Origin: a virus
Taxonomy: Duplodnaviria > Heunggongvirae > Uroviricota > Caudoviricetes
Length of the DNA: 41,227 nt
Virus record (IMG/VR): IMGVR_UViG_2541047931_000011
Coordinates: 1 to 41,227 of that record
Strand: one strand, 5' to 3'
Below are positions 29,339-34,117 of this stretch, in pieces. Made by a program: the position numbers and the translations under genes. A model generated the notes under the pieces. The model had not been told where the DNA came from. It worked only from the letters and a program-made list of their open reading frames with translations, and made no database searches. Position 1 is the stretch's first letter; every line of letters starts with the position of its first letter.

Positions 29339-29661
29339 AAATACCCTCTCTCACTTAATCGCGCCCACGCTTCGTTAAACTCTTCTCGGGTTGCGCCGGA
29401 TTTTCTTTCTTCAAACATCATGCATTCGCTGATGTCTCCCCATGACTTTGGTCGCTTTTCAGCGAACAGATCATCCCATTCGAATACCCAGCGGCCTGAT
29501 TTTCGGTAGTGGTAAATGATCAGCCATGTTGTGCTGTTCGCTGGATACCCATAGAGAACTTCGACTTTTTGATCACGGTCTTTATGCTTTTTCAGCAGGA
29601 TAAAGCCAGCAACCAGCGAAGCTCCGGCAAGAATGATGATTGGAATTTGCCAGTCAGCCAC
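29335..29661 (-). CDS. Membrane-anchored hypothetical protein (108 aa)
   Basis: N-terminal hydrophobic helix (IPIIILAGASLVAGFILL) followed by a soluble domain; first gene after the tR2-like terminator. Confidence 0.45.
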   Translation of the reverse strand: MADWQIPIIILAGASLVAGFILLKKHKDRDQKVEVLYGYPANSTTWLIIYHYRKSGRWVFEWDDLFAEKRPKSWGDISECMMFEERKSGATREEFNEAWARLSERGYL

Positions 29662-29675
29662 ACTTCCCTCTCCCC

Positions 29676-29708
29676 CAAATAAAAAGGCCTGCGATTACCA
29701 GCAGGCCT
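29676..29708 (-). terminator. Rho-independent terminator downstream of the helicase gene (tR2-like)
   Basis: Minus-strand CAGGCCTGC-tggtaatc-GCAGGCCT followed by TTTTTATTT. Confidence 0.55.
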
Positions 29709-29733
29709 GTTATTAGCTCAGTGATGTAGATGG

Positions 29734-31110
29734 TCATACGTCAGCCCCTTGTGCATATCGCCTGCCACGTGCAGCGGGTGCATTTGATGTTGTGCAAATC
29801 TGTCTGGCTTCATCCTGGTCACATGCAACAAAGTGTCCGTTACAGAACCGCTGGTAAACCGTACCAAGCGAGCCAAAACGGTTTTTCGTCACAATGATTT
29901 CAGCAAATGGCGCGGCGCTACTGTTCTCGTCATATACCGCTTCCCGATAGAGCATGATGATTGAGTCTGCGTCCTGCTCAATGCTTCCTGAATCACGCAA
30001 ATCTGCGTTTGTCGGGCGTTTGTTTGGTCGCTTCTCAACATCGCGCGAAAGCTGACTCAGGGAGATAACCGGTGTTTTCAGGTCTTTCGCCATCGCCTTC
30101 AGGCTTCCGGAGATGTGAGCAATTGCGAGGTCGTTGCGGTCTGCTTTCGGCTTCTCAATCAGGCCAAGATAATCCGCCATGATGAGTGAGAGGTTTGGAT
30201 TTTCCTGTTTGTGCCGTTCTGCGATTGAGCGTATTTCTTCGACCGATAACCGCGAGGCATCGACTACCCATACATCCAAATCTGCAAGCTGACTCATGCC
30301 GTTAGCAACACGCGCCCAGCCTTCGTCATCCATCGATGCAGGATTTCGCAGTACGCTAACCGACATCCTCCCGGCGTTGGCAATGCTTCGCTCTGCAATC
30401 TGCAATGCGCTCATTTCCATCGAGAAAATCAACACTCCTCGCCGGACGTCAGAACCAGGAATAACGCGGCTTGCAACGCCTTCGGCAATCTTCAGCGCCA
30501 GCTCGGTTTTCCCCATACCAGGACGAGCAGCGATTATCACCAGGTCTTCTGCGTTCATCCCTCCGGTGATGGCGTCAAGTTCTTCTATTCCGGTCTTCAG
30601 GGTATCTGACTCTTCTCCGTTCCTCAGACGCCTGTCAAGCGTGTCGGTGTAGTCAGTGATGATTTTCCCTAAGCGTACCGGTTTAACCTCGTCACGGGGC
30701 TTTCTGATGGCTGAGAGACGCTTTACAAGTTCATCCATCGCCTGACTCGATGCGTCGATGGTTCCGCTTTGGATTGGTTCACGCATTTCATCCATGATTT
30801 CCAGCACCAGACGGCGGTGATAGTTATCCGCGACCATTCCGGCATATCCCTTCAGGTTTGCGGCACTCGGGCAGTTTTTGCTGGTCATCAGGATTGACGT
30901 GAAATGCTCCTCTCCGCACTCCTCGGCAACCATCAGCGCGTCGATTAGGTTTCTGTTTCGCGCCTGCTTGCGGATAACCTCGAAGGCTTTCCGGTAGAGC
31001 GGAATTGAAAACGCTTCCGGCTCCAGCGTTGCCAGAACGTCGCTGGCGGTTGGTGTTAATCCACCAATCAGCAGGCCACCGATAACGCTCGCTTCGATAT
31101 CCTGTCTCAT
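29734..31110 (-). CDS. Replicative DNA helicase, DnaB family
   Basis: 458-aa protein with Walker A (ARPGMGKT) and DnaB C-terminal domain pattern; ATGA overlap with the O-like gene stop. Confidence 0.85.
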
Positions 31111-32054
31111 GCAATCCCCCTGTCTGCAAACTTCCCTTCCCGTACTCCCGTTAACGAATCTTCCCTCAGCAGGTAATCAAAATCAGCCGTCCAGCCCGTG
31201 TCGTTGTCTCCGAAGTAAAACGGCTTGGCCTGATGCACAAACGCCCTGACATACGCTCTGAAACCGTCCACATTTGGCGTTTTCAGTTGCGGGATGATTT
31301 TCTTCAGGCGGCGTTTGCGTTTCTCGTTGACCGCAACAGCGTGTGGAAGTCTGTCACCGACTTCGGTGTTGTAGGCGTTCAGGAAGGATTCGTAGTCGAT
31401 TCGTTCTGCCTTGCGACGTTCAGGTTTAACCTGCCCATCGCCTCCCCCATTGGGGGGTAGGGGGGTATTATTTATATTCTTGTTAATACCTTCTTGTTCA
31501 TGATGTGCGGTTGTTTGTGCGGCTTCATGTGCGCTTTCATGTGCGGAACGTACGCTGAAAGCCGCGCCATTACTGGCTTCATCATGTGCGGCATCATGTG
31601 CGGTTGTTTGTGCGGCTTCATGTGCGGGTGAATTGTCCATTTTTTGAGCATATTCATGGTAATTTGTGATGGTGATCACACGACCTTTTTGCTTCTCCCC
31701 ATCAATAGAGATCATCCCCTCTTTCACAAAAACCTGAAGCATCCGCTCAACCTGATCACGGCTTGCCGGCTTGCCATGTCTGTCGCATAACTGAAGACCT
31801 AAATCAGCTGCTGTCACAACCAGTTGACCGGGTTGCAGATGCCATTCATGACCTTTGAAATTCGATTTGTATGGCTTTCTGGCGGCATTCAGGAGAAGGT
31901 TTTCCCACAGGGTGCGAAGATAAACATCTTTCGCCCATGACTGTTTCAGAATGCTCCGGTACAACGGAATGTAACCAGTTTTCTGGTTCTCCATCCTGTT
32001 GCTCCTGCGCTCGTGTGCGGCGCTGAAATCGTAGATTTTTGCTGTATTGCTCAT
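31107..32054 (-). CDS. Replication initiator, O-like
   Basis: 315-aa ORF upstream of the helicase; central [14 protein letters not shown] repeats encoded by the iteron array. Confidence 0.7.
31500..31630. repeat. Iteron array (about 8 copies of core TGTGCGG at roughly 11-12 bp spacing, two blocks of four) = putative ori
   Basis: Copies at about 31504, 31516, 31528 (variant), 31540, 31586, 31597, 31609, 31621; adjacent AT-rich tract at about 31465-31495; lies inside the O-like gene as ori-lambda lies inside O. Confidence 0.6.
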
Positions 32055-32056
32055 AA

Positions 32057-32329
32057 CTACCTGCCTTGACGAAAGACCTTAAGAACATCGTTAAACTGAC
32101 TTACGGATATGTCTTCTTTGAGCAGCTTTTCCAGAAATGCGTTTGGAATGAACGTATATCCCTCCTCTTTTGGTAGAGACGGGAGCAACGCCCTCGCCTC
32201 AGCCTTCAGAAGCTCAGTTCTGGCAACTTTCACAAAAGAGATTTGAGTTCTTTCATCAATGGAACGAAGGAAGCGCAAACGCTTAGCTTCTTTGTGTGTA
32301 TCAGGTGGATTAAAGCCTTTGTTTCGCAT
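32057..32329 (-). CDS. Hypothetical protein (90 aa) between cII and the O-like gene
   Basis: Start MRNKGFNPPDTHKEAKRLRF... with SD GAGGT; the track ORF extends upstream in a frame overlapping cII, which I discount. Confidence 0.4.
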   Translation of the reverse strand: MRNKGFNPPDTHKEAKRLRFLRSIDERTQISFVKVARTELLKAEARALLPSLPKEEGYTFIPNAFLEKLLKEDISVSQFNDVLKVFRQGR

Positions 32330-32406
32330 ATAATTACCTCGCTGGATGTTGTTAAAATTCCATTTGTATTTGATCAGAACGCTCGGTTGCCGCCGGGCGT
32401 TTTTTA
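32330..32406 (+). ncRNA. oop: oop antisense RNA (overlaps the 3' end of cII)
   Basis: Plus-strand 3' end GTTCAGAACGCTCGGTTGCCGCCGGGCGTTTTTTATT matches the lambda oop terminator as I recall it; 5' end inferred from the 77-nt lambda length. Confidence 0.55.
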
Positions 32407-32645
32407 TTGGTGAGAATCGAAGCAACTTGTCGTGCCAATCGGGCCATGTCGTCGTCAACGACACCCCATTCAAGAACAGCAAGCAGCATTGAGAACTTTG
32501 GAATCCAGTCCCTCTTCCACCTGCTGATCTGCGACTTATCAACTCCCACAGCTTCCGCTGTCTTCTCAGTTCCAAGCATTGCGATTTTGTTAAGCAACGC
32601 ACTCTCGATTCTTAGAGCCTCGTTGCGTTTGTTTGCACGAACCAT
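32352..32645 (-). CDS. cII: Transcriptional activator cII (lambda)
   Basis: 97-aa protein matching lambda cII from memory (MVRANKRNEALRIESALLNKIAMLGTEKTAEAVGVDKSQISRWKRDWIPKF...); the track ORF has a 20-codon spurious N-terminal extension. Confidence 0.9.
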   Translation of the reverse strand: MVRANKRNEALRIESALLNKIAMLGTEKTAEAVGVDKSQISRWKRDWIPKFSMLLAVLEWGVVDDDMARLARQVASILTNKKRPAATERSDQIQMEF

Positions 32646-32724
32646 ATGTAAGTATTTCCTTAGATAACAATTGATTGAATGTATGCAAATAAATGCATAC
32701 ACCATAGGTGTGGTTTAATTTGAT

Positions 32725-32756
32725 GCCCTTTTTCAGGGCTGGGATGTGTAAGAGCG
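32725..32756 (-). promoter_or_regulatory. nutR (boxA CGCTCTTAC and boxB GCCCTGAAAAAGGGC)
   Basis: Minus-strand boxB hairpin at 32725-32739 and boxA at 32748-32756, between cro and cII; flanking sequence matches the lambda nutR/tR1 region. Confidence 0.75.
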
Positions 32757-32764
32757 GGAATGTC

Positions 32765-34117
<1,353 letters not shown>

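What the first reader, a model, noticed from the sequence alone, without database searches (positions are those of the whole stretch)
31496..31630. Iteron array and AT-rich tract inside the O-like gene: probable replication origin
About eight direct copies of a TGTGCGG-core repeat at roughly 11-12 bp periodicity form two blocks of four, with an AT-rich tract immediately downstream in the direction of O transcription. This mirrors ori-lambda embedded in O, but with unrelated iteron sequence. The repeats also generate the [10 protein letters not shown] peptide repeats in the O-like protein and a mirror-image His/Met-rich artefact ORF.
Basis: seen in the sequence. Interest (0 to 1): 0.35.

Follow-up and report, generated by a model that had tools for sequence, protein, structure and literature searches.

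The report
Replication origin inside phage O gene
The repeats are real and are almost certainly the phage's replication origin, sitting inside its own initiator gene as in phage lambda; equivalent origins are already annotated in phages HK620 and L, so this is an ordinary, useful annotation rather than a discovery.

Summary
Eight 12-bp direct repeats (coding strand CCGCACATGAnn) lie at 31499-31627 in two blocks of four. A 33-bp spacer separates the blocks, and an 81% A+T tract (31467-31498) follows them.

The array lies in the predicted disordered linker of a lambda-O-like initiator (31107-32054, minus strand). A DnaB-type helicase gene follows.

Comparison with 24 homologues supports the origin reading:
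- All share the same layout: 3-4 repeats, a 33-bp spacer with a conserved core, 3-4 repeats, then an AT tract.
- The repeat sequence changes with the N-terminal DNA-binding domain, giving about six classes.
- C-terminal domains are shuffled independently of the repeats.
- Exchange breakpoints fall exactly at the end of the AT tract.
- The linker lacks the third-codon-position relaxation seen in the N-terminal domain.
- In phages L and HK620 the repeat period is 11 bp, out of reading frame.

GenBank records for HK620 and L already annotate the homologous segment as an origin. Lambda's iterons occupy the same interdomain slot.

Verdict: new member of a known kind, with no experimental proof. Still unexplained are the conserved spacer core and the natural variation from 3 to 18 repeats.

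The parts
31107..32054 (-). O-like replication initiator gene (315 aa). The N-terminal Phage_rep_O domain spans aa 20-132. The linker, about aa 140-215, is predicted disordered. The C-terminal domain is of the P22 gp18 / HK97 type.
   Evidence: ORF. Pfam PF04492, E 3e-15. AlphaFold pLDDT is below 50 for residues 140-215. The C-terminal domain is 97% identical to mEp213/HK544/ST104 and 60% to P22 gp18.
31580..31627 (-). Iteron block 1. Four 12-bp direct repeats on the coding strand: CCGCACATGAAG, CCGCACAAACAA, CCGCACATGATG, CCGCACATGATG (31616-27, 31604-15, 31592-603, 31580-91).
   Evidence: Units sit at the same offsets (12, 24, 36, 48) in the diverged class A/A' homologues.
31547..31579 (-). 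33-bp spacer between the blocks. Its conserved core, CCAGTAATGGCGCGGCT, lies at 31560-31576.
   Evidence: The length is exactly 33 bp in all 24 homologues and the core is recognisable in all of them (0-6 of 17 mismatches). This includes the annotated ori of phage L. No conserved hairpin was found. Its role is unknown.
31499..31546 (-). Iteron block 2. Four 12-bp direct repeats: CCGCACATGAAA, GCGCACATGAAG, CCGCACAAACAA, CCGCACATCATG (31535-46, 31523-34, 31511-22, 31499-510).
   Evidence: Offsets 93, 105, 117 and 129 are conserved.
31467..31498 (-). AT-rich tract, the putative DNA unwinding element. Coding strand: AACAAGAAGGTATTAACAAGAATATAAATAAT. The last 18 nt (31467-31484) are conserved across iteron classes.
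   Evidence: 81% A+T. It contains the least stable 30-mer of the replication region, in the top 0.11% of the window. AACAAGAATATAAAT-like sequence follows the array in every iteron class and in phage L.
31440..31466 (-). Module junction. The C/G-run sequence ACCCCCCTACCCCCCAATGGGGGAGGC encodes TPLPPNGGG and is the first part of the C-terminal module.
   Evidence: DNA identity to mEp213 (HK97-type) and to E. coli class B genes starts exactly here. Identity to Klebsiella phage Mulock ends exactly here.
29734..31110 (-). DnaB-type replicative helicase gene (458 aa), overlapping the end of O. It is the presumed partner recruited by the O C-terminal domain.
   Evidence: Pfam DnaB_C, E 9e-78, and DnaB N-terminal domain. 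Hits under the match are annotated 'replicative DNA helicase'. The same pairing is seen in related loci.

Best explanation
The segment 31467-31627 is the phage's vegetative replication origin, embedded in the disordered linker-coding part of its own initiator gene.

Inferred mechanism:
1. The winged-helix N-terminal domain of the O-like protein binds the eight 12-bp direct repeats (CCGCACATGA). Because the sites are direct repeats without dyad symmetry, binding is probably head to tail.
2. The nucleoprotein complex strains the DNA and opens the adjacent 32-bp AT-rich tract.
3. The C-terminal domain, which is of the P22 gp18 type, brings in the phage's own DnaB-type helicase encoded by the next gene. 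Host primase and polymerase then start replication.
4. The origin lies in the rightward early (pR-type) operon, downstream of cro and cII, so that transcript should cross it as in lambda.

What is shown here: the anatomy, the homology, the covariation and the modular inheritance.

What is inferred: binding, unwinding and helicase loading. These rest on analogy with lambda O/ori-lambda and P22 gp18/gp12.
For: 1. Real, phased repeats plus the least stable duplex of the replication region next to them.

2. The host gene has Phage_rep_O. Weak fold matches (E 0.03 and above) are all to winged-helix DNA binders. The linker is predicted disordered.

3. Position matches lambda. The experimentally defined lambda iterons 1-4 and AT region, annotated in NC_001416, occupy the same interdomain slot. 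In Klebsiella phage Mulock the same repeats and AT tract abut a lambda-O-type C-terminal domain.

4. Covariation. In 24 homologues the layout is constant while the repeat core changes: CCGCACA, CCGCGCA, CGATGAACC, CGATACAC, GGTAACAAA, TGTCCAACGGA. N-terminal domain identity is 0.73 or more within a major class and 0.68 or less between major classes. C-terminal domain types are mixed within classes.

5. Exchange breakpoints lie at the 3' edge of the AT tract from both sides.

6. Constraint at the DNA level. Pairwise identity by codon position is 0.84/0.90/0.61 in the N-terminal domain but 0.94/0.79/0.77 in the repeat cores. Unit offsets are identical in the class A/A' homologues compared, although synonymous-codon identity in the domain is only about 0.5. 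In phages L and HK620 the period is 11 bp, out of frame.

7. The homologous segments are annotated rep_origin in HK620 (AF335538) and phage L (MW013503). The phage L paper predicts this for L and reports that P22 gene 18 has four ~20-bp repeats.
Against: - No experiment exists for this repeat class. The HK620 and L annotations are themselves predictions.
- A 12-bp period equals four codons, so from the window alone a peptide-repeat origin could not be excluded. Only the comparative data argue against it.
- The repeats are direct, short and lack the dyad symmetry of lambda iterons. The binding mode is therefore not covered by the lambda precedent.
- Natural variants with only 3-5 repeats and no spacer exist. 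Either much of the array is dispensable or those prophages are defective.
- The sequence cannot say whether unwinding happens at the downstream AT tract or at the weaker upstream one.
Confidence: 0.85

Rival explanations
1. The repeats are initiator-binding sites used mainly for control, such as autoregulation, titration or handcuffing of O, or exclusion of related phages. Actual strand opening and initiation would happen elsewhere.
For: In iteron plasmids and in lambda, cloned iterons titrate the initiator and inhibit replication (PMC3349717). Copy number varies from 3 to 18 repeats in nature, which would suit a dosage element.
Against: The array is always followed by a conserved AT tract, which here contains the least stable 30-mer of the replication region. 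It is inherited with that tract as one module. No second cluster of the motif exists in the window. Control and origin roles are not mutually exclusive.
Confidence: 0.07
2. The repeats matter only at the protein level. They would encode a flexible Ala/His/Gln-rich linker, possibly metal-binding, made by replication slippage, and the DNA would have no cis-acting role.
For: The 12-bp period is in frame and yields AH(E/D)A-type peptide repeats. The linker is predicted disordered. Copy number is variable.
Against: - Third codon positions are as conserved as second positions in the cores (0.77 against 0.79), unlike the N-terminal domain (0.61 against 0.90).
- All repeat Ala codons are GCA in the window, and GCG is the only Ala codon used in the CCGCGCA class.
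- Other classes encode unrelated peptides (PDEP, EVTN, CPTDVQR) with the same DNA geometry.
- The 11-bp repeats of L and HK620 are read in three frames.
- The repeat core tracks the DNA-binding domain.
Confidence: 0.03
3. The array is a neutral minisatellite, a 93-bp higher-order repeat, kept only by unequal crossing-over and without function.
For: Variants differ by whole 93-bp units, giving 3, 8, 13 or 18 repeats. The first and second blocks share a 24-nt identical stretch.
Against: A neutral repeat would not keep identical unit offsets and a 33-bp spacer across genera whose domains have about 50% synonymous-codon identity. It would also not switch sequence in step with the DNA-binding domain.
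Confidence: 0.02

Closest known systems
Putative origins annotated inside the O genes of coliphage HK620 (AF335538, rep_origin 10369-10464, two joined pieces) and Salmonella phage L (MW013503, rep_origin 31650-31726; Zaworski et al. 2020, PMC8022706)
   Same: - The initiator is homologous, at 22-26% identity (E 6e-11 and 7e-10).
- The position in the gene is the same.
- The bipartite layout is the same: 3 + 3 short direct repeats around a 33-bp spacer, followed by an AT tract of the AACAATAATATAAATAAT type.
- Phage L has the same spacer core, CCAGTAATGACGCGGCT.
- A DnaB-type helicase gene follows.
   Different: - The repeat sequences are unrelated: TGTCCAACGGA and TACCAGCAnAT against CCGCACATGA.
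- The period is 11 bp there and 12 bp here. The blocks are therefore in one 11-bp register in L and HK620 (66 bp) but not in a 12-bp register here (81 bp).
- There are 4 + 4 repeats here.
- The C-terminal domain type differs.
- Both annotations are predictions, not experiments.
ori-lambda in gene O of phage lambda (iterons 1-4 plus AT-rich region)
   Same: - The origin lies inside the initiator gene, in the linker between the DNA-binding and partner-binding domains.
- Repeated sites are followed, in the direction of transcription, by an AT-rich tract.
- The initiator N-terminal domain is Pfam Phage_rep_O.
- Klebsiella phage Mulock joins this window's N-terminal domain and repeats to a lambda-type C-terminal domain, with a gene annotated as replication protein P next to it.
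   Different: - Lambda has four 18-bp sites about 20-24 bp apart, each an inverted repeat (visible in the lambda sequence printed). Here there are eight 12-bp direct repeats in two blocks with a conserved spacer.
- The partner here is a phage DnaB-type helicase, not a P-type loader of host DnaB.
P22 gene 18 / gene 12 replication module
   Same: - The C-terminal domain is 60% identical to P22 gp18, including the TPLPP(N/K)GG junction.
- The next gene is a DnaB-type helicase like gp12.
- P22 gene 18 is reported to contain four ~20-bp repeats at the equivalent place. TCGGTAAAA recurs at coding positions 362, 382 and 406.
   Different: P22 has a lambda-like N-terminal domain and about 20-bp repeats. 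It does not have the short-period bipartite array or the conserved spacer.
Iteron origins of theta plasmids (RepA, pi, TrfA, RepE types)
   Same: Direct repeats are bound by a winged-helix initiator next to an AT-rich unwinding element. Repeat copy number affects control. This comparison rests on established knowledge and the reviews listed.
   Different: Plasmid iterons are about 17-22 bp at about 22-bp spacing, lie outside the rep gene, and usually come with DnaA boxes. Here the period is 12 bp, the location is intragenic, and no DnaA box lies within 31440-31680.

Membership tests
Lambdoid origin embedded in the initiator gene (ori-lambda type) | Initiator carries the Phage_rep_O N-terminal DNA-binding domain | tested here: met
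   PF04492, E 3.2e-15, 56.9 bits against a cutoff of 28.7, aa 20-132.
Lambdoid origin embedded in the initiator gene (ori-lambda type) | Repeats and AT tract lie inside the gene, in the linker between the N- and C-terminal domains | tested here: met
   Alignment with lambda O, with the annotated iterons mapped onto it. The linker is predicted disordered.
Lambdoid origin embedded in the initiator gene (ori-lambda type) | AT-rich, easily melted tract immediately downstream of the repeats | tested here: met
   31467-31498 is 81% A+T. It contains the least stable 30-mer in 29734-32705.
Lambdoid origin embedded in the initiator gene (ori-lambda type) | Iterons of about 18-19 bp with internal dyad symmetry, about 20-24 bp apart | tested here: not met
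   The units are 12-bp direct repeats. The only palindrome is CATG.
Lambdoid origin embedded in the initiator gene (ori-lambda type) | Partner is a lambda P-type loader of host DnaB | tested here: not met
   The next gene is a DnaB-type helicase. A P-annotated partner does occur with the same N-terminal/repeat module in phage Mulock.
Lambdoid origin embedded in the initiator gene (ori-lambda type) | Initiator binds the repeats and the fragment supports replication | not testable with these tools
   Only indirect support is available: covariation of the repeat core with the N-terminal domain and modular inheritance.
HK620 / phage L type bipartite short-repeat origin | Two blocks of 3-4 short direct repeats separated by a 33-bp spacer | tested here: met
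   The window has 4 + 4 units and a 33-bp spacer. The same spacer length is seen in all 24 homologues and in L and HK620.
HK620 / phage L type bipartite short-repeat origin | Conserved spacer core CCAG(T/C)AATG(G/A)CGCGGCT and an AACAA(G/T)AATATAAAT AT tract | tested here: met
   The window has 0 mismatches to the consensus core, which was derived with this window included. Phage L has 1 mismatch.
HK620 / phage L type bipartite short-repeat origin | Homologous initiator protein | tested here: met
   BLASTP gives 26% identity, E 6e-11, to HK620 O, and 22% identity, E 6.6e-10, to L gp18.
HK620 / phage L type bipartite short-repeat origin | 11-bp repeat period | tested here: not met
   The period is 12 bp here and in classes A, A', B and C. 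It is 11 bp in L and HK620.
Plasmid-type iteron origin | DnaA boxes next to the iterons | tested here: not met
   No TTWTNCACA match with up to 1 mismatch falls in 31440-31680. The nearest 1-mismatch site is at 31720.

The most novel reading that the evidence does not exclude
This would be a distinct origin design rather than a lambda look-alike. Two arrays of short (11-12 bp) direct initiator sites flank an invariant 33-bp spacer, whose conserved core (CCAGTAATGGCGCGGCT) would be a docking site for a factor common to all members. That factor could be a host protein or a specificity-independent surface of the initiator or helicase. In addition, natural copy-number changes of the 93-bp unit (3, 8, 13 or 18 repeats) would tune replication vigour, and hence induction or toxin dose, in E. 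coli prophages including Stx2a phages.
Probability: 0.2. Interest if true: 0.45.

Novelty: new member of a known kind. Interest (0 to 1): 0.25.

Why it matters
This gives a precise, testable origin annotation for a replication module that is common in E. coli. It was found in 281 of 5,426 complete genomes, in K1 phage CUS-3 and in many Stx2a-converting phages, and their records carry no origin feature. None of the terms searched for (origin of replication, iterons, repeats) occurs in the paper on 'Eru' replication types of Stx phages.

The family comparison is also a clean natural experiment. About six repeat specificities sit on one fixed scaffold, which could guide work on how O-type initiators read DNA and help build orthogonal phage or plasmid replicons.

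The concept itself, an origin inside O, has been textbook knowledge since lambda.

Tried and rejected
- Known RNA: no Rfam hit in 29500-33500 at E up to 1.
- Promoter inside the origin: no sigma-70-like site in 31000-32800.
- DnaA boxes: none in the origin.
- Conserved hairpin in the spacer: RNAalifold on 20 spacers gave 0 pairs.
- Conserved alternative-frame ORF through the repeats: the His/Met-rich and Cys/Met-rich ORFs exist only because of this repeat class. They cannot be preserved in classes with other cores or with an 11-bp period. I rejected them as by-products.
- Solved-structure relatives by sequence: none. The fold search gave only weak winged-helix matches, E 0.03 and above. I use these as consistency only.
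- Natural mini-replicon as proof of self-sufficiency: PLSDB hits are circularised phage genomes plus one 5.5-kb record with a truncated O and no helicase. This is uninformative.
- A functional phage with only 3 repeats: none in the phage collection.
- A ninth repeat at the 5' end of O (32011-32020): it has one mismatch and is absent in Mulock. I treat it as chance.
- Literature: I found no description of this particular repeat class in the searchable library. Older subscription papers could not be read.

Full report
**1. What is in the sequence**

On the + strand, TGTGCGG occurs at 31504, 31516, 31540, 31585, 31597, 31609 and 31621, and the variant TGTGCGC occurs at 31528. These eight sites form two blocks of four with an exact 12-bp period. 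Seven of the twelve exact matches in the whole 41-kb window, counting both strands, lie in this 124-bp stretch, on one strand and in register. Dinucleotide shuffles give about 6.9 matches for the entire window.

On the coding (-) strand the unit is CCGCACATGAnn. The units run 31616-31627, 31604-31615, 31592-31603 and 31580-31591, then a 33-bp spacer (31547-31579), then 31535-31546, 31523-31534, 31511-31522 and 31499-31510.

Directly downstream in the sense of transcription lies a 32-bp tract at 31467-31498. Its coding strand reads AACAAGAAGGTATTAACAAGAATATAAATAAT, and 26 of its 32 bases are A or T. By nearest-neighbour energies it contains the least stable 30-mer of the replication region 29734-32705 and ranks in the top 0.11% of the window. 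A weaker AT-rich stretch lies upstream at about 31630-31670, in the top 2%.

Two corrections apply: the period is exactly 12 bp, and the AT tract lies mostly just outside the stated coordinates.

**2. Gene context**

The array sits inside ORF 31107-32054 (-), which encodes 315 aa. Residues 20-132 match Pfam Phage_rep_O (E 3e-15). The next gene, 29734-31110 (-), is a DnaB-type helicase (DnaB_C, E 9e-78). Upstream on the same strand lie cII and a cro-like HTH gene, and a cI-like repressor (HTH plus Peptidase_S24) is divergently oriented.

An AlphaFold model built from a shallow alignment shows two folded domains: about aa 32-137 and about aa 216-310, mostly at pLDDT 70-87. Residues 140-215 have pLDDT below 50. 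The repeats, spacer and AT tract all fall in the DNA for this predicted linker. Fold matches are weak (E 0.03 and above), but all are winged-helix DNA binders.

The gene is 98% identical to the O genes of CUS-3, Gally, JEP4 and HF4s, and 98-99% identical to those of many Stx2a-converting phages. None of the hit rows or records inspected shows an origin feature there. The window's virion genes resemble myovirus-type phages (vB_EcoM-611R5, SEN34), so the replication module is a mosaic piece. The origin segment occurs in 281 of 5,426 complete E. coli genomes.

**3. Comparative test: a fixed scaffold with changing repeats**

I compared 24 homologous genes from GTDB genomes, phages and assemblies. 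All share one layout on the coding strand:
- 3-4 short direct repeats;
- a spacer of exactly 33 bp, with consensus ACaAAcCCAGtaaTGgCGcGGCtTc;
- 3-4 more repeats;
- an AT-rich tract containing AACAAGAATATAAAT-like sequence.

Within the CCGC(A/G)CA group, the homologues compared carry their units at identical offsets after the end of the N-terminal domain. The offsets are 12, 24, 36, 48 and 93, 105, 117, 129, or the 3 + 3 version 12, 24, 36 and 81, 93, 105. This holds even though synonymous-codon identity to the window in the N-terminal domain is only 0.48-0.59.

The repeat core differs between groups:

| Class | Repeat core | Members |
|---|---|---|
| A | CCGCACA | window, Klebsiella phage Mulock, Trabulsiella, Sodalis |
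| A' | CCGCGCA | Citrobacter, Enterobacter, Phytobacter and others |
| B | CGATGAACC | E. coli class B, Pantoea |
| B' | CGATACAC | a Sodalis MAG |
| C | GGTAACAAA | Xenorhabdus, Photorhabdus, Pantoea |
| D | TGTCCAACGGA | phage L |

HK620 adds TACCAGCAnAT.

N-terminal domain identity is 0.73 or more within a major class and 0.68 or less between major classes. A against B is 0.44-0.48, A against C is 0.40-0.46, and anything against D is 0.27 or less. The one-base pair A and A' sit at 0.69-0.77. The repeat sequence therefore follows the DNA-binding domain.

**4. The module is inherited as a unit**

C-terminal domains are shuffled independently of the repeats. Class A occurs with a P22-gp18-type C-terminus (the window) and with a lambda-O-type C-terminus (Mulock, L083, L089). 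Class B occurs with gp18-type, L-type and another type.

At the DNA level, the window and mEp213 (HK97-type N-terminus) share no similarity up to the AT tract. From ACCCCCCTACCCCCC (window 31466) onward they are nearly identical. The same holds for an E. coli class B gene. Conversely, the window and Mulock are similar through the N-terminal domain, the repeats and the AT tract, and diverge at exactly that point.

The exchange unit is therefore the N-terminal domain plus the repeats plus the AT tract. That is what one expects if the domain and its sites must stay together.

**5. DNA constraint rather than peptide constraint**

Across ten gap-free class A/A' genes, mean pairwise identity by codon position is:

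| Region | Position 1 | Position 2 | Position 3 |
|---|---|---|---|
| N-terminal domain | 0.84 | 0.90 | 0.61 |
| Repeat cores | 0.94 | 0.79 | 0.77 |
| First 23 nt of the spacer | 0.81 | 0.68 | 0.77 |
| AT tract | 0.79 | 0.68 | 0.66 |
| Four variable bases of each unit (all positions) | 0.53 | | |

The N-terminal domain shows the usual signature of protein-level selection, and the linker elements do not.

All eight repeat Ala codons in the window are GCA, and GCG is the only Ala codon used in the CCGCGCA class. Other classes encode unrelated peptides. In phages L and HK620 the period is 11 bp, so successive units are read in three frames. A peptide-repeat explanation therefore fails for the family.

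**6. Relation to known origins**

The lambda RefSeq record annotates iterons 1-4 at 39034-39118. PMC3349717 places the AT-rich region at about 39128-39172. In a protein alignment these fall in the same interdomain slot as the window's array and AT tract. In Mulock the AT tract abuts the same SSENS.ESSD sequence as in lambda.

The P22 gp18 C-terminal domain is 60% identical to the window's. The phage L paper reports that P22 gene 18 has four ~20-bp repeats and predicts that six 11-bp repeats are the origin of L.

The GenBank record of phage L annotates 'putative origin of replication' at 31650-31726. That segment reads TGTCCAACGGA x3, then AACACCAGTAATGACGCGGCTCACAGCAAATGT (33 bp), then the first repeat of a second set of three. 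An AACAATAATATAAATAAT tract follows just beyond the annotated end. HK620's 2001 record annotates a two-piece rep_origin at the homologous place. The L and HK620 initiators are distant homologues of the window's: 22% identity (E 6.6e-10) for L and 26% (E 6e-11) for HK620.

The window's array is thus a new sequence class of an origin design that is already recognised, though only by prediction.

**7. Differences from lambda**

The units are 12-bp direct repeats with no dyad beyond CATG. They number eight, in two blocks. There is a conserved spacer that lambda and P22 lack. The partner is a phage DnaB-type helicase. No DnaA box lies in 31440-31680, no sigma-70-like promoter lies in 31000-32800, and there is no Rfam match.

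**8. Most likely mechanism**

Confidence is about 0.85. O binds the eight sites through its winged-helix domain, probably head to tail. The complex destabilises the adjacent AT tract. The gp18-type C-terminal domain then loads the phage helicase. Binding, melting and loading are inferred by analogy with lambda O and P22 gp18/gp12. The comparative genetics is what is shown here.

The rivals are a control-only binding array (0.07), a purely peptide-level repeat (0.03) and a neutral minisatellite (0.02). The evidence for and against each is given in the rival explanations.

**9. Unexplained points**

*The spacer.* It is always 33 bp and keeps a recognisable core across repeat classes. It forms no conserved hairpin and matches no site I could name. 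In the 11-bp classes the two blocks are in one register (66 bp, six periods of 11 bp). In the 12-bp classes they are not (81 or 69 bp). What is conserved is therefore the spacer itself, not the phasing.

*Copy number.* Close relatives differ by whole 93-bp units, giving 3, 8, 13 or 18 repeats. The corresponding proteins are 284, 315, 346 and 377 aa, or 20 aa less from the internal start. The 8-repeat form dominates: clusters of 409, 294 and 1,458 member sequences, against tens for the other forms. No phage record encodes the 3-repeat form, and every close relative whose linker was read has the 8-unit layout.

**10. Verdict**

The finding is real and correctly interpreted. It is an ordinary but useful annotation: a new member of a known kind. 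Interest is 0.25. The modest extra value lies in the family-wide scaffold, the repeat/domain covariation and the unexplained spacer.

Noticed in passing
window 32376-32403 (+): Strong intrinsic-terminator-like hairpin (12-bp stem followed by a T run) on the strand opposite cII, overlapping the cII 3' end. It resembles the terminator of an oop-type antisense RNA as in lambda. Rfam gave no match.
   Followed up: no
window 1-24000: The virion genes are 93% like myovirus-type Escherichia phages vB_EcoM-611R5/683R1 and 83% like Salmonella phage SEN34. The replication module is shared with P22-like podoviruses (CUS-3, Gally, JEP4) and Stx2a phages. This is a clear mosaic.
   Followed up: partly
window 31547-31579 (core 31560-31576); also L118:4184-4216: The 33-bp spacer between the repeat blocks has invariant length and a conserved core, CCAGTAATGGCGCGGCT, in all 24 homologues despite different repeat sequences. 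There is no hairpin and no DnaA box, and I recognised no known site. Its function is unknown.
   Followed up: partly
proteins P0001-P0072; L111:2501-3574: Close relatives carry 3, 4, 5, 8, 13 or 18 repeats through gain or loss of a 93-bp unit. No phage record encodes the 3-repeat form.
   Followed up: partly
L119 (NZ_CP148879.1, 5,555 bp circular, Salmonella Infantis): A small 'plasmid' record consisting of cI, cro, cII, a small ORF and the first 618 nt of this O gene (repeats and AT tract included), with no helicase. It may be an assembly artefact or a lambda-dv-like mini-circle.
   Followed up: no
L112 (mEp213), L121 (VT2-Sakai), L120 (HK620): The 'non-lambdoid' Eru2A and Eru3A replication proteins of Stx phages (Llarena 2021) appear to correspond to HK97-type and HK620/L-type O proteins. 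This rests on matching length and description (273 aa with Phage_rep_O; 300 aa in the VT2-Sakai-type phage), not on a direct sequence comparison. The HK97-type C-terminal domain, including that of Stx2c phage 2851, is 97% identical to this window's. HK620's record has carried an origin annotation since 2001.
   Followed up: partly
window 31440-31466 (-): The C/G-run sequence ACCCCCCTACCCCCCAATGGGGG, a short inverted repeat encoding TPLPPNGGG, marks the exact recombination junction between origin modules and the gp18-type C-terminal module. It is also present in P22 gene 18 and HK97-type genes.
   Followed up: partly
window 32011-32020 (-): An isolated near-copy of the repeat (GCCGCACACGAG, one mismatch) lies in the 5' end of O, upstream of the internal Met21. 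No exact copy of the core occurs there in phage Mulock, so it is probably chance.
   Followed up: partly
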